In this document: in pieces, positions 3,546-56,850 of the stretch
Position numbering within the stretch: position 1 is the stretch's first letter
Layout of the letters: the number at the start of each line of letters is the position of its first letter
Source of the DNA: Octopus vulgaris
Taxonomy: Eukaryota
Direction: 5' to 3'
NCBI GenBank assembly: GCA_951406725.2
Contig: OX597816.1
Span: forward strand, 44,640,001-44,704,000
Length of the DNA stretch: 64,000 bases
Position numbers and translations under genes: made by a program
Notes under the pieces: model-generated
What the model saw: the letters and a program-made list of their open reading frames with translations, nothing else
What the model was told of the DNA's origin: nothing
Database searches by the model: none

Positions 3546-4344
3546 TAAATATATATATACCCCTTGATTCTCCTTAAATTGGCCTGTGAAACAATTCTAA
3601 CGACTTTATCCACTACGCTTCATTCAAATTCAACGACTGTAATATTTTATAGAAATGAACTCCTTGAGTTTCGTGGAGAAAGCACTTCATACTTGCTTAG
3701 GTGTACAGAGAGATGAATATAAGTCGTGAAAATGATCTTCAAATAATATCTTATCTCAAATAATATCATCGTTCACAGAATTTTGTCGTATCGGTTATAT
3801 ATGAGTGAGAAACAAGTTATTTCGAGAACAATTTGATGTATTGAAACAATGGAATTATTTAATCAAAAGCACCATATAGAAAACATAAGATATCAAATTA
3901 AAACAAATTTTGTTTAAATGAATACACTGAAAATATATGTTAGATCATAAATAATTGTAAGGTAACATTAACGTGGATTAACATAATAGAGAGAAAATGA
4001 TAAAAGTTTGTATAAGTTTGTACAAAATACATTGTAATTATATAGATGTATACGAACAAAGAAATGAAAAAACAACATAGATATCTTGCAGTAACATTGT
4101 CTATTACTCCTATCACATATCAATAATAAGTATGTGTATATCTTGAAACAGTGGCATTATCTAATCAAATAACAAAGACAATAAATGATATCAAATTAAA
4201 TGAGTGTGAAAGTGAATACATAGAACAGAATTTAGAATAGAGATTCTGAAAAGGGAAATGTTAAAGTCAATTAAAATAAAGTAAGGCTAAAAGAAAAGGA
4301 AGTAGAGATAAAAAGAAAAATAATGTGAAACAAATGCAGAATAC

Positions 4345-4942
4345 TTTATAATATGGAATAATTACTGGCTATGTGAGCAAGAAATCAGCTCAATTAGAGA
4401 ATGGCAAAAAGCAAACTGCAATAAACTGAAGCAATATAAACTTAATCACGTTTAATAAATTGATGGTTCAATAGGAAATCGTAAGAATCATATTCAATAA
4501 TTAAGTAAATATAATAAATGGAGAAACAATAATTGAGTCTCAGTTTAATCAATTAATTAAATATCTCAAAACGTGGAATCCTGCCAGAGTCAAGAATTTT
4601 TGTCAGATACTATTGTGAAGTGAGTTAGTTCTCCTATTTATTTTGTTTTAAAGTATGAAAGGTATAATGAAGAAGAAAAAATACAGTTAGTAGCAAAGTA
4701 TGCGTTTGTTAGAAGTAATGGCCTTCATTTTGAAATTGTTTCTATCTAGATAAAAAATAAACCATAAATATGATGATTGAAGATTACTAGAAATATAGTA
4801 ATATACTAATAAAAGTGTGTATCTGTGTGTGCGTGTGTGTGTGTGTGTGTGTCTTTGTGTGTGTGTGTGTGTGTGTGTTTTAATGTTCTAAGTATCGTAT
4901 TTCTGTTTCTGTCAGATGAGAGAAATTCCAAGAGTAGATTAA
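4345..4942 (+). pseudogene. Possible death-fold (CARD-like) pseudo-exon ending at 4619, plus 27-nt microexon 4916-4942
   Basis: Broken frame EISSIREWQKANCNKLKQYKLNHV/FNKLMVQ*EIV...INGETIIESQFNQLIKYLKTWNPARVKNFCQILL*. Donor GTGAGT at 4620, acceptor TTTCTGTTTCTGTCAG ending 4915, donor GTGAGT at 4943, phases compatible. Stops and a frameshift are present. Confidence 0.3.
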
Positions 4943-5224
4943 GTGAGTGCATGCTGGTGAATAAGATTTTCCAACGTTCTGAGAGAAACGGGCAAAAACT
5001 TTAAATGTCACTATAAGGTTTTCCGCCCGTAAACTTTTCCATTTTATATTTGTTAAATTTAAATTCAAAATAGGGTTTTGTTGAAAGAAGTAAGCTTTTT
5101 TGTTCTAGATTCTTAAAGTGCGTATATATTGAAAATAAATTTCGGAAGAAGTGGCAATTAAACCTGTAAGGGATACAGAAGACCAGCTTGTAAATATTGT
5201 GGTAAAAGTTACCTTCCCTATTCA

Positions 5225-5450
5225 AACCGACTCATAAGGGCCAATTTCCCGGTTTCATGGCGTATATATTCCCCACCTGGATGGAACGCTGGTCCCTCGC
5301 AGGATTAGTCATTCTTGCCAACTGAGAGAACTAGAGTGAGTGAAATGAAGTGTTTTGCTCAAGAACACAACGCATCGCCCGGTCCAGGAATCGAAACCAG
5401 ATTCTTACGTTCATGAGTCCAACACCTTAACCACTAAGCCACGCGTCTCT
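5225..5450 (-). mobile_element. tRNA-head CORE-like SINE sharing tail type 1
   Basis: Reverse strand reads GCGTGGCTTAGTGGTT...GGTTTCGATTCC...GTGTTCTTGAGCAAAACACTT...CCTGCG...TCCAGGTGGGGAAT...GAAACCGGGAAA, a tail like that of 2906-3210. Confidence 0.75.
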
Positions 5451-5794
5451 ACTTAAACGCTGTGGTGCAATAAAGTGATTATTTATTTGATCTTGCAATT
5501 TCTTTCGAGTGGACAATTGCTGGTGTTAATATAATTGCACTTAGATATATTTTGGTTTGGGAAATGTCGAAGTGACTGCCACTTAAATAAAATAAAAATT
5601 AAACAATGCCACATTGTCCATCCTTTAGATATTCCGATGAAAAAATGCCATGTAATATTTTCCATTGAATTGGCAGAAACAGGAGGATATCGGATATACA
5701 TGAGTGCCCTGTTTATGTTAGAAATCAATATGCACAGTAGTCTGTTCGATTGCCCATTATCTTAATCAAATAATCGGTCCACTGCAGTCGGATT

Positions 5795-5957
5795 ACTCTT
5801 TTACTCTTTAACTTGTTTCAGTCATTTGACTGTGGCCATGCTGGAGCACCGCCTTTAGTCGAAGAAATCAACGCCAGGACTTATTGTTTGTAAGTCTAGT
5901 ACTTACTCTATTGGTCTCTTGGATGTTGGGGGACAAACACAGATACACAAACATATG

Positions 5958-6032
<75 letters not shown>

Positions 6033-6196
6033 GGCGGGGTTCTTTCAGTTTCCATCTACCAAATCCACTCTCAAGGTTTTGGTCGGCCCGAGGCAAAAGT
6101 AGAAGACACTTGCTCAAGGAGCCACGCAGTGGGACTGAACCCAGAACCATGTGGCTGGTAAGCAAGCTACTTACCACGCAGACACTCCTGCGCCTA
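5795..6196 (-). mobile_element. SINE family B (GGCGCAGGAGTGGCTGTGTGG head, internal TA/CA microsatellite, GTAAAAGA tail)
   Basis: Reverse complement of the copy at 18811-19270. Confidence 0.85.
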
Positions 6197-6654
6197 TTGG
6201 GTTATTGACATAATAAGGTGATATCTACGTGGTCACTCAATTTGCAAGAAATATCATCCGCATCTCTCTCAAATCCCGCTCTATCTCATCTTAAAAATGA
6301 AGGAACATATTTGGCAATTTGGTTCTGGATAGCACAAAATGGTGATATTGTCACAACTAAAATTATGTTGATCAGAAATCTATTTGATTATGGTTGACCT
6401 TGAATAAAACAATGAGAAAAACCTTCGAGAAAAACTAACTACATTCACTTGATGTTGTACTAATCATTACTACGGCTGCTGTTGTAGTTGGGAGAATATT
6501 TTTGTATGCGTATATAGGTGTATTCTATAGATGATCGTTCATTCTTTCCTTTATTTTCCCTTTAATAAGTTAATTTTTGTTGTGCGGTTCTAAAGTTGCG
6601 TCCCGTCCCAAGCTGCAGTTAATTCAGCACCGGAAATGTTCATATACATATATA

Positions 6655-6885
6655 TGCTTCTTTATTATCCACAAGGGTCTTAACATAGAGGAGACAAACA
6701 AGGACAGACAAACGGATTAAGTCAAATACATCGACCCCAGTGCGTAACTGGTACTTAATGTATCGACCCCGAAAGAATGAAAGGCAAAGTCGACCTCGTC
6801 GGAATTTGAACTCACAACGTAGCGGCAGACGAAATGCGTAGCCGCATTTCGCCCGGCGTGCTAACGGTTCTGCCAGCTCGCCGAT
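6655..6885 (-). mobile_element. SINE family C (GGCGAGCTGGCAGAA head; GTCGACTTTGCCTTTCATCC central domain)
   Basis: Near-identical to many copies in the window. Confidence 0.85.
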
Positions 6886-9069
6886 AGTGTGTGAAGTGAC
6901 TTTGCTTATAATCTTACCTTTGGCCATAACTTCAGGATCGGCAGATTCCTGTTCCCCTTTTTTTTTATTTCTGAACGGGTGTCTATTAGAAGTTAGGCAT
7001 TTTCCTTAGATCTAATTTGTGGTCAAGAATACTGCTGTGTGACTGCCGAATTACAAGCGGGTCTTTTCTTTGATTCGTTAATCACATAAGAATCATATGT
7101 GTGTCATCATTCTTTATACAACGAATTATGACAAAGCGTAAAGAGAAGAAAACTTTGCACATTTTTCGTCATTGCACGCATACTATACACTCAGACCCTT
7201 TATACAAGCAAACATATGCTACACTTGAAAGGCCATCTCAGCAGGCATTTGGAAGTGTACTGTTGGTTGTAAGCCATACATTTCCAGCTATTAAGCTATT
7301 AACATGAATCACTACTCTCGGCTGTAAAGAGAACACTTTAAAGAACACGACTACGAAAGTTTCCTATGAATGCAATCTCTCAAACTCTGTGCAGGAAAGC
7401 AAAAATATGTGACAAGGAAATATAGCAGCAGAAAGGAAACATTTTTTTATAATATTGTCAGATGCTGCATAGCATAATAATAAAGGCAGAACGGCTGTCT
7501 CGTTTGCGCACTATCTGTACGTTGCTTCTGCCAGTAGAATCTGAACCAGTGACAGGTAGCTCATGATAGTTCCACCTGCTAGAAATATCAGGTAAATCTC
7601 CATTGAGTCATACCTTATTGGCTTAGAAATAAGCAGTGCACATTCGATAATGTCATCCAAGATACATAATATCTGGAGAAAAAACTTCTTGTCTTTAATG
7701 ATAAATCAGTTAACCCACCACAAAAACTATCAACACCACCATCATCACGACCACTTACCCATTATGATCAACATCACCACCACTACCACAACAGCAACAA
7801 CATTCTTACATACATACATACAGACTGACAGACAGATAGACAGACAGAAATCGTCTGGACAGTAGCAAGATTACAAAATATATAGAATACGAAACTATAA
7901 CGCATGAACCACTGCATGTTAGAATGTTCAATATGTTACCGAACTAGATGAAAATATGGCTCAGCTGGAGCTATGAATCTGTAAATCATACATTGTTGTT
8001 CGGTTGTCTACCCGTTACTATACAACAATTGCAATTCACATTACGCTGGGTACACACCACCAAATGAATGGCATCACCATGCATTAAGGAAGGATTTTCA
8101 AGATGCACATATAGAGTTAAAATTACATTTCCCAAGAAAAATATTTAATTTTGATATATCCCGGTTCTTACTTCAGCTTTCTAGTAGACCAGAATATTTC
8201 TTAAATATATACATTGGTGATCTATCTATGGTTCGTGACTTCAAATCCAATGATAGCTTTCATTGTGTTTCTCAGCAGAATAGTTTACGGGCCATAGGTA
8301 ATAGAGATGTTGTAAATAATACCAGATCCTCTGTGAGAATTTAATTACGGCAGATTAGCATCCCATGACAAGTCGGAGAATGAAATTAGAAACCTTCCAA
8401 TGCTTCTCTCTGGTTTGTGAAAAGATTAATCGCTGCACACTGTGGTTGACTTAACAACTTACTTTCTTGTTTCGGATAATAATTTAAGAACATTCGATTC
8501 CTCTGTCCATTCGATTGCTTTCGAACGACTGCAAAAGGTTATAATTTACATGACCCAGAAATGAAAAGGCTATACTTTATTTCATAGATTTAACGAGACC
8601 ATATTTAAAAGTTTCATATACATCAGTAACGGCCTATAAGTAAATGATTTTTATCATGGTCTTGCCGTTTAGTTGCATGTTTAAATAGCAAGACGCGTGG
8701 TTAACCGACAAACCTGGAAGCAACATACGACAAATCGTTTTATTAGAATATTGATTTCTTATATAGACACAAGGTCACAGATTTGCAAGTGAGGGCCGAT
8801 CAATATTTTGTGACGTTCATATTTCATATATTATTCAACTTCATGCATTTCTCATGAGAAGTGAAGTGATTGGCATTAAGTGGAGAAAGAAGCCAGTTTG
8901 TGAACTAGCCTCATTCGAAACTTATGTCTTTACAATACTATACTCTATAGAATATCAATTCTGATAAATATTTGAAATGGCTGACAACGTTGGAACAAAA
9001 TTTTGCTATTTGTTAGGTTGTTCTTGATGAAATAGTTATACCTTGGGCTTTTCAAGCCATCCAAGATCG

Positions 9070-17369: not shown

Positions 17370-18472
17370 GATGTCCACACAACAAGAGCATAACGATTAA
17401 AGTAGTAGTTGAGAAAAGTTGAATGTGTACCCATCTGAATATTGAGCGGTTTACCTGTATCATGTTGATTCGCACCGGCTTTCAAAATGCCGACAAGGCA
17501 ACTGCTGTACAATGCTCTGCGAACACTGTAAATGCTGTAAACTATGACATGAAGAACTGCAACAGAGACATAGAAGCCGTGACAAGCAGGACGGGACGTA
17601 GCGGAACGGGACGTAGCAGGACGGGACGTAGCAGGACGGGACGTAGCAGGACGGGACGTAGCAGGACGGGACGTAGCAGGACGGGACGTAGCAGGACGGG
17701 ACGTAGCAGCAAGGGACGTAGCAGCAAGGGACGTAGCAGGACGGGACGTAGCAGGACGGGACGTAGCAGGACGGGACGTAGCAGGACGGGACGTAGCAGG
17801 ACGGGACGTGGCAGGACGGGACGTGGCAGGACGGGACGTAGCAGGACGGGACGTAGCAGGACGGGACGTAGCAGGACGGGACGTAGCTGGTGCTCTGACT
17901 ACGTACGCTCGACAGAATCTATCCCCACATCTTTGAAGAGAGCCTCTGGCTCAATCTAGACGGCTATGTGAAACTGCTGGAAGCTGTGATCAAATCCTGA
18001 GTGGAAAGAGTTGCTGTTGTAAGCTCATATGTGTGTCAGAAGAATTTGGCTTCTTGGTATACCTCCGAAAAGTGTGAGAAGTGGTTGTCTGAATATTTCT
18101 CCGACTTTACTAGCCCCAATTTCTGGCCTCTTAATTCCTTTGATTGTAATCTCATGGATTACTATGTGTGGGGCGCTGTTTATAAAAACACCAACTGCTC
18201 TGCCTGCAACACGGAAGCCTATCTATGGTCAGGATCAAAGCATTGTTTGAAGACACCCCCAGGGATACAGTGGGAAACGCATGCGCCATGTTCCGGAGTC
18301 GTCTTGAGGCTATAATGGATGCTGTCGACAGCTACTCTGAGTAACCTTTTATACCCCGGCCACAATCTAGTTGACAATTTTATTTATTTTTTTAAATACT
18401 TATATTTTTGGATGATATATTGTATTTTCTTTTCCTTTTATACAAACTGTCAACTTTAGCTCGATAACTATG
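17370..18472 (+). mobile_element. Internally deleted Tc1/mariner-superfamily relic (DD37D/maT-like)
   Basis: FWPLNSFDCNLMDYYVWG matches the WPPxSPDLNPLDYxVW motif. Probable 3' terminus near 18445-18472; 5' end not resolved. Confidence 0.75.
17586..17885. repeat. 15-bp minisatellite (GCAGGACGGGACGTA) x ~20
   Basis: Seen directly; gives the TGRSR repeats in ORF 17423-17959. Confidence 0.97.
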
Positions 18473-26935: not shown

Positions 26936-27569
26936 TGTGTGTGTGTGTGTGTGCGTGCGTGAGTGCGTGCGCGGGTATATGTTGTCTGCATGTGTATCGT
27001 TGTGTGTGTGTTTGTCAGTAGGTAGTAGGTAGATAGATACATACACATATACGCACAAACATGTACACACCTATAAATATACACATATGTACATCTACAT
27101 ATATCTGCATATACACGTACACATATACATATAAACATATAAGCCACTAATTGCTTTGGAGATGCTGCTCGACGTAAGTCGTTCTATAATATGCCTTTTG
27201 TCTCTAAGTAATCTTCAGACTTTGAGCACATGATCTATTCAGTTTGTGACTCATACAAATCACGAGAAAAACAAGAAGGTAGATACAAAATTTGAATGGT
27301 AAAAAAATTGGAAAAGGAGAAGAAAAAAAGAGTTATGTCCCGTTTGATTGAAAGGCCATAATTTAAGCTGGTTTTTGTAGAATAATTTCAGTAGCACTGC
27401 CAACATAGGCAGAATAGAGTATTGACTTTTAAGCCGTTAATATATTTGGTATTTATTCCGGAAGGAAGCAATTAATACCAGATATTCAGCACGCACTTCA
27501 TGATTTTTCGACATACAGAAAACATGTAGCGTATTTCAAGATATATGTATATCTTGCTTAATTCAAATT

Positions 27570-29890
27570 CGTTGGCACTCTTGACTTTCAAGCGTGATAC
27601 TAATCGTAAACCATTTTGAATATGAATGACAGAAATTGATTGTTATTACCGTAAGGTGGACTTCGATTGAGTGAGGATGGTCACGTTGTGTCGTGGTTTG
27701 ACGTTAGTATATGGGTGACACTCAGTTGGAAAATAACGCACGGTGAACAGGAAATTGACCACGCGGAGGACAGGAAATAGACCACGTGGCTGATAGGAAA
27801 TCAGCCAGGTTGTTGAGAGGGAAGCAGGAAGGGGTGGCATGTGCAAGTATTCACTTCTATATGGTTTTGTGCGTATGTGTGTATTGATGCGAGCATGCGC
27901 ATCTGTACATGGGCGTGCACGTGCGCGTCTGCACACACACATATACTTGCGCGCACATGCACGCGCTCACACGAACACATACACGTGCATACGCACAGTA
28001 CACACACATTCAGGCATACACGCATACACACATGCGTATTCATTTATATGTTCATATATATATATATTCGCATGCATGTAAGCATGCATACCAGTATGCA
28101 CGCGCACACACGTCTGCGTGTGCACATATGCATTTGCGCGCACGTGCATTAGTATACATGCGGAAAACAAACGTTGGGAGTTGGTAAGCGGTGGGGATTG
28201 GTATGTGTTGGGGGCTGGTAAAAGTTGGGGATTGGTAAACGTTGGGGATTGGTAATTGGTGGTGCTGCTCATAGGGTTCGTTGGTAGCGGTGACCTTGGT
28301 GGAGGCGGTGGAGAGCAGAAGCTGGTGCTAAGGTGGTATATACTCTGTTCAGCCTATATTGGCAGTGCTCGTCAAATTCTTCTACAGCAACCAGCTTAAA
28401 TTTTGGCCTTACAAACAAAGGGAACAAAACCCTAACAGTCTTTTCTTTTCTTTCTCCAGTATTTTCACCCTTCAAATTTTGAACCTACTTTCCCGTTTTC
28501 CTCGTAATTCCTCTAAAGCAACCTATAAGTTTCCACCAACGTAGATAGGGACTTCTCGCTAATTAAGAAACACTTCCCGTGAGGCCATAAGTATTAAAAC
28601 TCCTCAACCCCCATAATGTCAAGGTGAGCTACTCCTGCTCAGACAACATCACATCTAACATCACGCACATCAACAGACGTAAATGTGCACGCACACCACA
28701 CCCAAACTCCAACTTGCAACTTCCGAAGCCCCACCGTGTGCCATCTAGAAGGATCTTGCCTCTCAAAGGCTATGGTATAGAAAGCCACCATTAAACAATC
28801 TGATGGGATTACTAGGCACTATACGAGTATGACAGCTAATGGCTTAAAGGAAAGATACTCTCAGCATACGCACTCGTTCAAATCTAGGGACAGAGAAAAG
28901 TCTACTTTTGTGACTCGCTTTCTCTAGAGATTCCGTGATCTCCGAGATGAAATACCCAGTATCAAATGGACTATTGTCAACAGAACGCAACCATATTCAC
29001 CCGGCGTCTCCAACTGCCGACTCTGCTTCCTTCAAAATGAAATATTATTTATCGTATTGCTGTCACCGGAGGTATGCCTAACTGGCAAATTTCAGGCCTC
29101 TGACTGCCGACAACCTGGATATACTACCTTAGCACCAATTGCTATTCTGCACCGCCTGCATCAATTTCACCGCTACTAACCAGCCCCATGAACAGGACCA
29201 CCAATTACCAATTCCGAACGGTTTCCAATCTCTAACGCATACCATTCCTCAACGCTTGCCAATTCCCATCGTTTACCAACCTTCAAAGCTTGGTTTGCGC
29301 GTGTATATTCACGCACGCGCGGACCTAAATCTGCATGAGCAGGCGCATGCGTGTGTGCGCGTGCGCTGGTATGCATGCGTACATGCATGCGAATATACAT
29401 ATGTACATATGAATGAAGGGGTATGTGTTTGCGTGTGTGCGTATGTTTGTGTATATGTGCGTATTCGCGCGTATGCGTGTGCGTGTGTACGCGTGCATGT
29501 TCGTCCAAGTGTCGGTGCGTTACGCGCGTATGTGTGCAGATGTGCGAGTGCGCGCCCATGTACAGATGCGCACGCTCGCATTAATACATACTTGCTAGCA
29601 AAACCATATGAGCGCTTCTACACACCCACATATAGAAGTATATACTTGCACATGCCACCCCTTCCTACTTCCCTCTCAGCAACCTGACCGATTTCCTATC
29701 CGCCACGTGGTCTATTTCCTGTCCTCCGCGTGGTCAATTTCCTGTTCATCGTGCACCATTTTCAAACTAACTGTTAACCATATACTAACGTCAAACCACG
29801 AAACCACGTGACTTTCCTCGGCCAATCGCAGCCTACCTTACCGTAATAACAATCAGCATTTGTCATTCAAGTTTAAAATGGCTGACGAGT
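27570..29890. repeat. Long inverted repeat (arms ~27600-28345 and ~29115-29890)
   Basis: For example, CAGGAAATTGACCACGCGGAGGACAGGAAATAGACCACGTGG (~27748) is the reverse complement of CCACGTGGTCTATTTCCTGTCCTCCGCGTGGTCAATTTCCTG (~29703). GGTGCTAAGGTGGTATA (~28324) pairs with TATACTACCTTAGCACC (~29120). Confidence 0.93.
28535..29035 (+). mobile_element. Decayed Penelope-like (Naiad-type) linker plus GIY-YIG endonuclease fragment
   Basis: IKKHFP...VKVSYSCSDNITS...TCNFRSPTVCHLEGSCLSKAMV*KATI...HYTSMTANGLKERYSQHTHSFK...IKWTIVNRTQPYSPGVSNCRLC. Confidence 0.8.
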
Positions 29891-31349
29891 TACAGCGAAT
29901 CTAAGTCACACTGTTTTGATCCATACATGTAACTCACAATAAATCTTTCGATTGCCCTTCTTTCGTTTCTCCACTCACTCCTATATTTATACTCACACAC
30001 ATACACACACACACACACACCACATATAGCATGACGCACCTCATCTTGTTAAGGTTACGTACATCTGCATGAGGAAGAGTATTAGAACTTAGCTTTTTTT
30101 CATGTACTGACAAATTTATACGAGTGTGCATGTATAAATATATTAACTGCTGCCCATATACCGACATCAAACCACGACACCGCCTGACCTTCCTCGACCC
30201 TTCGCAGTCCACCTTAATGTAATAACAATCAACTTCCGTCATTCAAAATTCAAAATGGCTGACGACTAGTATCACGCTTGAAACTCAAGAGTACCAACTA
30301 TTTTGATCCATATATGTAAAAGACTGTAATAAACAATTTTCTTTGGATTGGAAAATTTTATCAAAATCATTTCCCTATGATAAAGCGAAATCCTTCTGCC
30401 TCCTTTGTACGGACGAACAATTAATAATCCTTTTACCAAACACACATACTGGTCGACACCTATAAAGTGTTTATAGGTATTTACACTGGAAAAACACACT
30501 TTCGGGCTTTTCAAATAATATCTGCCCCTTACCTAATAATATCAGCAACTTAATCTTCATTCTTTCATCCCGTACCTCCTATTCTTTCCTTCATCTTTTC
30601 TATCTATCTGTCATTCACTTTTTATTTGTTTATACCTCCATTTCTCCTTTAATTCTCCCTCTCTCACTTTCTCTCTTCCTTCTCATCTTCTCTTGATCTA
30701 TGACGTCAAAATACCTTACTGTATTTTAAAATTACTAGCATTCCCTATCCACCTTTGTTTTCCATATGTGTGTGTGTGTGCATTTAAACATGTGTGTGTG
30801 TTAGATATTTTGGTTTCTTACATCTGTTAAATTGACTTACTGATGAATACTGTTGTTTATATCCTCCCTGATGGGATTGATGCATTTTTCCACATTATTC
30901 TTCCTCAGATTTATCTTAATGCATACATATGTGGGTGATATGGTGATATAAAAGATTTAAATAACATCGTGTCTCCATTCTCCATCATTCTTATGTGACA
31001 TCTGGCTACCTAGTAACTGTTCCTCTGGATTTCTCCTTGTAAATTGAACCTTCATACATATATATATATATATATAGATTGATACGAAGAGAGACAGAGA
31101 GAGACATATATGTCTCTGAGTGCATGTGTCTGTATACACACTTATAAATACAAACATGTATACATATATATATATTGCGAAGATGATCTGGTTCTTGACT
31201 GATGACTGAGGGCTTCGAATGTCCCGTCCTGTGGTTCTTGTGTCGTCTCTTTGGTGTTTCATGTTCTTGTCCATGTCTGTATTTATTTTTTACTGTTTAT
31301 ATATATATATATATATATACATAAACATGTGCATATACATAAAGATGTA

Positions 31350-38922: not shown

Positions 38923-39782
38923 TCGAACGCAAACATTTTTGAGAATCTGTTTTTGTCTTTCACATTTTCATTTCTTAGTGTGTGTATGGGGGGGGGGCAA
39001 TGTAAATGAAAGACTAATGTCACAATTGGTAGAGCGTCGGTTACTTCACCGTTTTAGTTCAAATCCCCTGCAGAATCACTATTTGGTTCATCCTTCCGAT
39101 AAACATGAAATAAGAACTGGAGATCGACTAAATCGATTGTATCCTGCCGAGTCGGTACTCCAGAATGGTCACAATGCAATGAATATAACCAATAATAGCA
39201 TAAAAGATTAACGAAACAACATCACACCTTCCTATATCAGCGACACTTATAACTTATTCTTCAGCAATCAAAAACCAAAATGTACTTGAGAAAAAAAAAA
39301 ACTGTCCCGACTGAAAATAAATAATAAATTCATAAATCAATACAAAAATATAAATAAAATAAATAAATTATACAAAACTAAACAAATGTTTGTGTTTCAC
39401 AATCTTTTATAGTGAATCTACTTATTAATTTATGGCACTGATCACAGGAAATAAAACGTTCTCAGAGGAAAGCAACAAAGTGATATAATTTGGAAACTGA
39501 GACGAAGGTGTGCAGTTTTCTTTTGTTTGTTGTTTGTATACTTTTGTGCGCTTGTATCAATGCATGTATATAAGTATGTATGTATGTATGTATGTATGTA
39601 TGTATGTATGTATGTACGTATGTATGTACGTATTATGTAGGTAGGTAGGTACGTACGTACTGAGGTGCGTAGGTAGGTAAGTAGGTATATACGTACCTAG
39701 GGAGGTATGTATAAATGGATGGCTGTATGTATATATATGTATATATGTATGTGTGTATGCATGCATGCATGTATGTTTGTAT

Positions 39783-40322
39783 GTCACTATTCAGTTTTAT
39801 TTAAAGATTTCTTGCCAATAGAGAAAAAGCCGGTTTCTAACCTAGATCCAAGACTCCTTCTTTGAAATTTCAACATCGACAGGATATTTTTGTATGTATG
39901 TATGTATGCCATTATTCAATTTTATTTCAATATTTCTTGCCAATAGAGAAAGAGCCGGTATCTAACCTAGATCCAAGGCTTCTTCATTGGATTTTCAACA
40001 TCAACAGGGTATTTTGTATGTATGCATTTATGTATGTATGTATGTATGTATGTATATATGTATGTATGTATGCATGTATGTATGTATGCATGTATGTATG
40101 TATGTATGTATGTATGTATATATGTATGTATGTATGTATGCATGTATGTATATATATATATGTATGTATGTATACATGTATGCAGGCGTGTATGTTTGTT
40201 ATGTTGGCATGTACGTATGTCATTATTCAGTGTTATTTCAAGATTTCTTGCCAATAGGGAACGAACCGGTTTCTAACCTAGCTCCAAGGGTCCTTCACAG
40301 GAATTTTAACATCAACAGGGTA
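39783..40322 (-). repeat. Three ~105-bp units separated by (TATG)n tracts; probable LINE 3' termini
   Basis: Unit ..ATTTCTTGCCAATAG..CCGGTTTCTAACCTAGATCCAAGG..CAACATCAACAGGG at ~39783, ~39907 and ~40219. The minus strand has AATAAA-like signals followed by (CATA)n. Confidence 0.85.
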
Positions 40323-56340: not shown

Positions 56341-56439
56341 CATGCCTATTCGTCCACTTAGCTGGTATTAATCTTATGGTAGGTGTGTAATACTCAAATG
56401 CCAACTGAATTTCTTCTCCTTTCCTCTACTTCTTATTCC

Positions 56440-56850
56440 TTTATTGCCCACAAGGGGCTAAACATAGAGGGGACAAACAAGGACAGATAAAGCGATTAAG
56501 TCGATTACATCGACCCCAGTGCGTAACTGGAACTTAATTTATCGACTCCGTAACGATGAAAGGCAAAGTCGACCTCGGCGGAATCTGAACTCAGAACATA
56601 ACGGCAGACGAAATACCTATTTCTTTACTACCCACAAGGGGCTAAACACAGAGAGGACAAACAAGGACAGACAAACGGATTAAGTCGATTATATCGACCC
56701 CAGTGCGTAACTGGTACTTATTTAATCGTCCCCGAAAGGATGAAAGGCAAAGTCGACCACGGTGGAATTTGAACTCAGAACGTAGCGGCAGACGAAATAC
56801 TGCTAAGCATTTCGCCCGGCGTGCTAACATTTCTGCCAGCTCGCCACCTT
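56440..56850 (-). mobile_element. SINE family C, tandem-domain form
   Basis: Same structure as 52815-53222. Confidence 0.88.

What the first reader, a model, noticed from the sequence alone, without database searches (positions are those of the whole stretch)
27570..30320. 2.3-kb foldback enclosing a Penelope/Naiad-like GIY-YIG fragment
Seen: ~750-bp inverted arms (27600-28345 / 29115-29890). Each has a motif-dense outer part (CACGTG, repeated AGGAAAT, AAAATGG; CCAAT on the right arm), a CA/CG-rich middle and short GATTGGTA subrepeats. The ~770-bp spacer encodes a decayed PLE endonuclease with the C-x-C/CPL.G.C linker and terminal CxxC typical of Naiad-type elements. The outer terminus recurs at ~30218-30305. 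Established: PLEs form inverted terminal structures, and Foldback/MULE-type elements have long modular TIRs and capture DNA. Inference: either an unrecognised long-TIR element that captured a PLE piece, or a PLE-triggered inverted duplication. If transcribed it would form a long dsRNA, a plausible ADAR or small-RNA substrate.
Basis: partly seen in the sequence, partly recalled or inferred. Interest (0 to 1): 0.7.

Follow-up and report, generated by a model that had tools for sequence, protein, structure and literature searches.

The report
Dead Hydra-clade Penelope retrotransposon foldback
This hairpin is two shortened tail ends of one Penelope-type jumping gene of the known Hydra group, lying back to back in a TA repeat and likely made in a single insertion; it is an ordinary, decayed insertion, with a short piece of neighbouring DNA copied into its middle.

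Summary
The foldback is real: arms 27604-28341 and 29119-29888, 76% alike. It is neither a Naiad nor a long-TIR DNA transposon. The arm is the native 3' end of a Penelope-like element (PLE): in 31 of 39 other loci found with the spacer, the endonuclease runs straight into it. A full-length copy shows RT then a C-terminal GIY-YIG, with RWK, CxCx5C and CxxC motifs and a Hydra-type hammerhead; two other copies show DKT. That is the Hydra clade, a family different from Hydra-1_Obim. An inverted 5'-truncated copy is the published PLE architecture and recurs in 26 of 72 other loci. The family has two fixed 3' ends 58 nt apart. All 15 head-to-head pairs with both ends clearly readable (window included) have one of each; one further pair is ambiguous. 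This argues for single insertion events. Peculiar to this locus among 26 junctions: about 170 nt of the left flank copied, inverted, into the junction. The dsRNA/ADAR idea is only predicted. The scan has already reported this kind of structure on other DNA, this genome included. Ordinary; low interest.

The parts
27258..27422 (+). Flank segment that served as donor of the junction filler; most of it belongs to the 3' region of an older, different PLE family
   Evidence: 79% inverted match to 28340-28509; dispersed relatives match only 27257-27387; relative L037 carries a PLE endonuclease next to it (tblastn E 6e-19)
27541..27555 (.). Degenerate (TA)n at the left end, likely the target site
   Evidence: sequence; most other copies end in (TA)n or a similar microsatellite
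27556..28345 (-). Left arm: inverted, 5'-truncated copy of the element's 3' end (last few codons plus 3' UTR); tail-less end, stopping about 12 nt before the family's usual short end; hammerhead remnant at about 27561-27625 with a mutated core
28340..28514 (-). Junction filler: inverted copy of the local flank 27258-27422, overlapping the arm end by a few bases
   Evidence: extends about 35 nt beyond the point where four other members of that repeat diverge, in step with the local flank; junction letters; bridged by contigs of other runs
28519..29132 (+). 5'-truncated, decayed ORF end: RT thumb/linker, Cys linker (28715-28741), GIY-YIG endonuclease, CxxC (29015-29026), stop codon 29130-29132; several stops and frameshifts
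29133..29923 (+). Right arm: native 3' UTR (17-nt repeats, CA/CG-rich middle, 23-nt repeats, hammerhead region partly deleted in this copy)
   Evidence: follows the endonuclease directly in 31 of 39 other loci
29924..29981 (+). 58-nt 'tail' on the right arm only, followed by degenerate (TA)n and (CA)n; equals the first 58 nt of the next monomer's 5' UTR in the tandem copy L103
30144..30310 (+). Separate solo 3' end of the same family, tail-less, with an intact hammerhead core (CUGANGA 30259-30265, GAAA 30280-30283, predicted cut after 30293); likely an independent insertion
   Evidence: lacks three variants shared by the two arms in its range and shares two with the left arm; the 141 nt before it matched nowhere else in the genome

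Best explanation
The region is a decayed, 5'-truncated insertion of a Hydra-clade Penelope-like retrotransposon with an inverted, shorter copy of its own 3' end at its 5' side, likely made in one insertion event. Shown: element identity, domain order, the arm as native 3' end, recurrence of the inverted layout, two fixed 3' ends 58 nt apart with one of each per pair, and a flank-derived filler. Inferred mechanism (from PMC11167929, where another PLE protein nicks and extends both strands and starts reverse transcription at two internal RNA sites): the element's protein nicked both strands of a (TA)n site; each free 3' end primed cDNA on uncleaved element RNA, one at each start site (32 and 90 nt past the predicted hammerhead cut); both cDNAs stopped early, after about 0.8 and 1.5 kb; before they were joined head to head, the shorter cDNA likely snapped back on its own flank strand and copied about 170 nt of it. 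The copy is dead; no host function is indicated.
For: Arm directly follows the endonuclease in 31 of 39 loci chosen by the spacer, whose query held only 12 nt of arm. Full-length copy L103: inverted arm, direct pLTR, 5' UTR, RT, endonuclease, 3' UTR, tail. RWK in 2 of 2 copies that reach it, DKT readable in L091 and L093, CxxC in about 36 of 42. Full-length homologues carry the matched region at their C-terminus (P0004 516-680 of 713). The hammerhead has the layout listed for Hydra elements in File S2 of PMC8557442 (compared by eye). Inverted 5' copies in 12 of 39 spacer-chosen and 14 of 33 arm-chosen loci (read by eye). One tailed plus one tail-less end in 15 of 15 clean head-to-head pairs, 14 of 14 without the window (14 of 14 has p 6e-5 at best odds of one half). 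The window's arms share 9 non-CpG departures from the column majority against at most 6 with any other copy. Penelope-13_HM has the same inverted 5' copy.
Against: The window's left arm stops about 12 nt short of the usual tail-less end, so for this locus alone its end type is less clean than in other pairs. Pair identity beats the background median in only 11 of 16 pairs (that list still held L105, later dropped as tail-to-tail), and several variants shared by the window's arms are carried by 10-23 other copies, that is subfamily marks. L098 is ambiguous (7 nt of tail, then unlike). Rfam did not call the hammerhead and Pfam called neither RT nor endonuclease; the minimum-energy fold of the intact-core copy gives stems I and III but not stem II. 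The second Cys of the CxCx5C linker is Phe in 24 of 42 copies, the window included. No tree against published Hydra sequences was built. Loci were the best matches to this copy, not a random sample.
Confidence: 0.92

Rival explanations
1. A single ordinary PLE copy inserted first; a later repair event at this site made the inverted arm and copied the flank piece.
For: The flank-derived filler was seen in 1 of 26 junctions and looks like a repair product; the left arm does not end exactly at the family's short end; arms share derived variants, as a local duplication would also give.
Against: The same head-to-head layout recurs in 26 of 72 other loci, with the one-tail rule in all clean pairs; the left arm keeps hammerhead-region letters that the right arm has lost, so any duplication is old; filler-to-flank identity (79%) is like arm-to-arm identity (76-86%), compatible with one date.
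Confidence: 0.04
2. Two copies of a dispersed repeat landed independently next to each other in opposite orientation.
For: The arm is abundant (782 candidates), copies cluster at microsatellites, a third likely independent copy lies 160 nt away, and arm-to-arm identity is only slightly above copy-to-copy identity (0.844 against 0.813 +/- 0.023).
Against: Independent insertions would not give one tailed and one tail-less end in 15 of 15 pairs, nor junctions in which the two pieces abut or nearly abut in most loci, nor rare shared variants (one carried by 2 of 62 copies, the two arms).
Confidence: 0.03
3. A Foldback/MULE-like DNA transposon with long modular TIRs captured a PLE fragment.
For: Long inverted arms with subrepeats; paired arms recur with different spacer lengths.
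Against: The arm is contiguous with the PLE ORF in 31 of 39 loci and in a full-length element; the two outer ends differ by 58 nt; inner ends vary; spacers are element sequence except this filler and a 256-nt piece in L134; ends lie in microsatellites with no target duplication seen.
Confidence: 0.01

Closest known systems
Hydra clade of C-terminal EN+ Penelope-like elements, including Hydra-1_Obim and Penelope-13_HM (Craig et al. 2021, PMC8557442; read: abstract, sections 6, 11, 12, passages, supplement parts 2 and 58 and search hits)
   Same: RT then C-terminal GIY-YIG; RWK, DKT, CxCx5C linker, CxxC near the end, no Cys pair inside the GIY-YIG core; hammerhead in the 3' end with the same core layout; (TA)n targets; inverted 5'-truncated copy (listed for Penelope-13_HM).
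   Different: A different family from Hydra-1_Obim: hammerhead stems and protein differ (compared by eye). Tail 58 nt against the 30-40 nt given for PLEs. Long 3' UTR (about 850 nt) with subrepeats. Most sampled copies have Phe at the second linker Cys.
Inverted-pLTR insertions of Penelope elements in Adineta vaga (Arkhipova et al. 2013, PMC3846280; read: passages)
   Same: [quoted passage not shown]
   Different: Other clade; 31-nt tail; target duplications of 8-10 bp seen there, none readable here in (TA)n.
PAc (Poseidon of Anolis) in vitro mechanism (Frangieh et al. 2024, PMC11167929; read: passages and section 3 part 2)
   Same: Two internal start sites of reverse transcription bound the tail; ends lie past the hammerhead cut, so uncleaved RNA is the template; AT-rich targets; both strands nicked and extended.
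   Different: Other clade. In the passages read, no strand difference in start site is reported and no pairing of the two sites within one insertion is tested; the genomic pairs here suggest one site per strand.
Naiad PLEs (PMC8557442)
   Same: Inverted 5'-truncated copies, one-sided tail, (TA)n targets, present in octopus.
   Different: N-terminal endonuclease, DKA, CCHH, no canonical hammerhead; none fits this family.

Membership tests
Hydra-clade PLE | Single ORF with RT followed by a C-terminal GIY-YIG endonuclease | tested here: met
   L103 and L091 align to homologue P0004 from residue 1 to about 710 in order; translations
Hydra-clade PLE | N-terminal RWK motif | tested here: met
   2 of 2 copies reaching it, L103 and L091; the window copy is truncated before it
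Hydra-clade PLE | DKG modified to DKT | tested here: met
   DKT readable in L091 and L093; degenerate in L103; L079 starts just after it
Hydra-clade PLE | CxCx5C linker | tested here: inconclusive
   Complete in L103; first and third Cys in 30 and 35 of about 42 copies; second Cys in 10, Phe in 24, the window included
Hydra-clade PLE | CCHH absent; CxxC beside the conserved Glu | tested here: met
   No Cys pair between the GIY and YIG equivalents in the window, L084 or L103; CxxC in 36 and 35 of about 42 copies
Hydra-clade PLE | Hammerhead motif in the 3' end | tested here: met
   Core intact in 35 of 68 copies scored; layout like File S2 entries (by eye); Rfam gave no hammerhead hit; cleavage not tested
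Hydra-clade PLE | Insertion into (TA)n | tested here: met
   Most of 75 termini run into (TA)n or a related microsatellite (read by eye); degenerate TA at both window ends
Hydra-clade PLE | Length generally under 3 kb | tested here: inconclusive
   L103 monomer spans about 3.2 kb (3870-7046), with about 0.3 kb in its 3' UTR not matched to the references
Hydra-clade PLE | RT phylogeny within the Hydra clade | not tested
   Published reference proteins were visible only as supplement text; compared by eye
Naiad PLE | N-terminal endonuclease | tested here: not met
   Endonuclease is C-terminal
Naiad PLE | DKA motif, CCHH motif, no canonical hammerhead | tested here: not met
   DKT, no Cys pair in the core, hammerhead motif present
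Foldback / MULE-type long-TIR DNA transposon (features recalled, not from a call) | Equal termini at both ends with a target-site duplication | tested here: not met
   Ends differ by the 58-nt tail in 15 of 15 clean pairs and lie in microsatellites; no duplication seen
Foldback / MULE-type long-TIR DNA transposon (features recalled, not from a call) | Arms independent of the cargo; associated DDE transposase | tested here: not met
   Arm is the PLE's own 3' end in 31 of 39 loci; a transposase was not searched for genome-wide

The most novel reading that the evidence does not exclude
The two start sites of reverse transcription in PLEs are not used at random: in this family each foldback insertion uses both, one per DNA strand (15 of 15 clean pairs; the tail may sit on the longer or the shorter arm), which would be the genomic footprint of an asymmetric dimer priming twice on uncleaved RNA; and a stalled cDNA can snap back to copy its own flank, so PLE insertion duplicates nearby host DNA in inverted form.
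Probability: 0.55. Interest if true: 0.35.

Novelty: new member of a known kind. Interest (0 to 1): 0.15.

Why it matters
The locus is one dead copy among hundreds, of a clade and an architecture already in print. Such foldbacks would be dsRNA substrates if transcribed, which matters in animals with heavy A-to-I editing (recalled), but nothing here shows it for this locus.

Tried and rejected
Rfam scan of 27000-30600: 58 weak matches, all below gathering score, mostly miRNA models on CA/TA-rich DNA, no hammerhead. Pfam: no RT or GIY-YIG call on 4 stop-free family fragments or on 9 full-length homologues; the clade seems too divergent for these models. Word-seeded protein searches found nothing; the exhaustive HMMER search found 3772 proteins. 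RNA: no RNA holder listed; one run guessed to be RNA has a single contig identical to 28304-28448, which may be DNA; its one A>G difference is also in the other three runs; no conclusion on expression or editing. ORF list of the window was not followed up, so whether the locus lies in an intron is unknown. An inversion with staggered breaks as source of the duplicated flank piece was considered and rejected: other loci match 27394-27450 as one piece across the supposed breakpoint at 27422. Two 'end types' first looked like two subfamilies; they are one sequence ending at two sites. L105 was first counted as a pair and then dropped because its two ends face each other; L120 was added after inspection; my notebook entry 2 predates this. 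Pairs with one end lost or interrupted (L082, L083, L104, L107, L108, L111, L115, L128, L129, L138) could not be scored. Flank capture was looked for in 25 other junctions and not found (L120 not included; gaps of 14 nt or less not searched). Literature searches; they found no paper on this family or on flank capture in PLEs, but the library is incomplete, Repbase and Dfam could not be searched, and only 2 of 59 parts of the 2021 supplement were read in full; supplements of the other papers were not opened. A sequence look-up in earlier scan notes gave nothing.

Full report
1. Observation. The arms exist: 27604-28341 pairs with 29119-29888 at 76% over 779 columns, E 1.6e-150, 86% in the outer 260 nt. 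The subrepeats, the decayed endonuclease and the third terminus are as described, with the corrections listed under the observation check. Contigs from other public runs bridge the arm/filler/body junctions.

2. What the arm is. The outer arm has 782 first-look candidates in the 2.8-Gb genome, best copies 79-86% alike; the spacer has 416. I fetched 72 larger loci: 39 chosen by the spacer and 33 by the arm, the best matches in each case, so not a random sample. In 31 of the 39 the ORF end runs at least 35 nt into the arm (the other 8 stop earlier or are interrupted). The ORF stop is at 29130-29132, so the arm is the 3' UTR plus a few codons. L103 is a full-length copy: inverted arm, direct 5'-truncated copy (pLTR), 5' UTR, ORF, 3' UTR, tail. 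The 5' ends of copies fall at many different positions, as expected of 5' truncation.

3. Which clade. Upstream of the endonuclease the copies encode RT. An exhaustive search with a stop-free 192-residue stretch of L084 found 3772 proteins; full-length ones match at their C-terminus and carry RW(K/R), DKT, CxCx5C and CxxC. P0004 aligns along L091 and L103 from end to end. In the family, RWK is in 2 of 2 copies that reach it, DKT is readable in two, CxxC is in about 36 of 42, and the linker is complete in L103 but has Phe at the second Cys in 24 of 42 copies. Craig et al. 2021 (PMC8557442, section 11) define Hydra by these features; Naiads have an N-terminal endonuclease, DKA and no hammerhead. 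The terminus holds a type I hammerhead motif: stem I with an internal loop, CUGANGA plus one base, a short stem II, UGAAA, a near-palindromic stem III and a GUA cut triplet, the layout that File S2 lists for Hydra elements (by eye). The core is intact in 35 of 68 copies scored; in the window only the third copy keeps it. Rfam and Pfam recognised none of this. The one octopus Hydra family in that paper, Hydra-1_Obim, has different hammerhead stems, so this is another family. No tree was built.

4. The foldback. Inverted 5' copies occur in 12 of 39 and 14 of 33 loci (by eye; the arm-chosen set favours pairs). The family ends at two fixed places, 32 and 90 nt past the predicted hammerhead cut, mostly running into (TA)n. 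The 58 nt between them are the start of the next monomer in L103. Of head-to-head pairs with both ends clearly readable, 15 of 15 have one tailed and one tail-less end: the window, L078, L080, L103, L117, L120, L130, L132, L134, L136, L139, L142, L144, L146, L148. L098 is ambiguous, L105 was dropped as tail-to-tail, and ten further inverted loci lack a readable second end. The tail sits on the longer arm in some (window, L103, L120, L130, L146) and on the shorter in others (L078, L080, L132, L142, L148). Chance for 14 of 14 is at most 6e-5. The window's arms share 9 non-CpG departures from the majority, more than with any other copy (at most 6), though pair identity exceeds the background median in only 11 of 16 pairs listed and some shared variants are subfamily marks. 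Copies are about 9% from the column majority outside CpG, the window's arms about 11.5%: old and dead. The layout is in print: an inverted 5'-truncated copy and a tail often at one end only (PMC8557442 section 6), a tail on one of the inverted pLTRs (PMC3846280), and the same inverted copy on the Hydra element Penelope-13_HM.

5. The filler. 28340-28514 copies the flank 27258-27422 in inverted form. That flank is mostly part of an older PLE family, but the filler follows the local flank about 35 nt beyond the point where four other members diverge, so it was copied from this site. It overlaps the arm end by a few bases. None of 25 other junctions examined had such a filler.

6. Mechanism. Shown: sections 1-5. 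From the literature: a purified PLE protein nicks and extends both strands at AT-rich DNA, is predicted to be a dimer, starts at two internal RNA sites that bound the tail, and does not need hammerhead cleavage (PMC11167929). Inferred: both ends of a cut (TA)n site primed cDNA, one from each start site; both stopped early; the left cDNA folded back on its own flank strand, copied about 170 nt, and was joined to the right cDNA. Rivals (later repair duplication 0.04, two independent insertions 0.03, TIR transposon 0.01) are weighed in their own sections. The third copy at 30144-30310 is likely separate.

7. dsRNA. Folding 27558-29995 predicts 642 arm-to-arm pairs on the + strand, longest helix 53 bp, and 611 on the - strand. 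This is a prediction for an RNA not shown to exist.

8. Verdict. New member of a known kind; interest 0.15. My reading was fixed before I opened the scan's earlier notes; five of them describe the same kind of structure and are not counted as support. The boldest reading left open is the strict one-start-site-per-strand rule with occasional flank snap-back (probability 0.55, interest 0.35); it is known qualitatively, and my four literature searches found no count of it.

Noticed in passing
window 27200-27387; L033-L042: The flank repeat is the 3' region of a second, older PLE family (copies 66-77% alike); L037 carries a Hydra-like endonuclease next to it. The foldback inserted beside an older PLE remnant.
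   Followed up: partly
L087:2675-4194 (minus strand): Remnants of another Hydra-like PLE (RT thumb and endonuclease pieces) next to a copy of this family.
   Followed up: no
L105:3775-4374: A short copy of the terminus lies tail to tail with the tailed arm, 210 nt away and 96% identical to it, far above background; possibly a local inverted duplication.
   Followed up: partly
L103:7046-7247: The full-length copy runs about 35 nt past the tail into the next 5' UTR and then repeats its last ~110 nt plus tail.
   Followed up: no
window 27791-28050 and 29702-29933: One contig of run X3 joins the outer right arm to the inner left arm (record 17). Likely an assembly switch in the 47-nt stretch identical in both arms; a flipped allele is not excluded.
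   Followed up: no
L134:2001-2258: A 256-nt piece unrelated to the element or the flank sits in the junction of another pair; possibly a later insertion.
   Followed up: no
window 17585-17887; 39769-40032; 56434-56800: A 15-nt GC-rich tandem (20 copies, 96%), a 125-nt and a 184-nt two-copy tandem.
   Followed up: no
family linker, window 28715-28741: The dominant sampled subfamily has Phe in place of the second linker Cys (24 of 42; Cys in 10), so copies with an altered linker may have been mobilised, in cis or in trans (sample biased towards this copy).
   Followed up: partly
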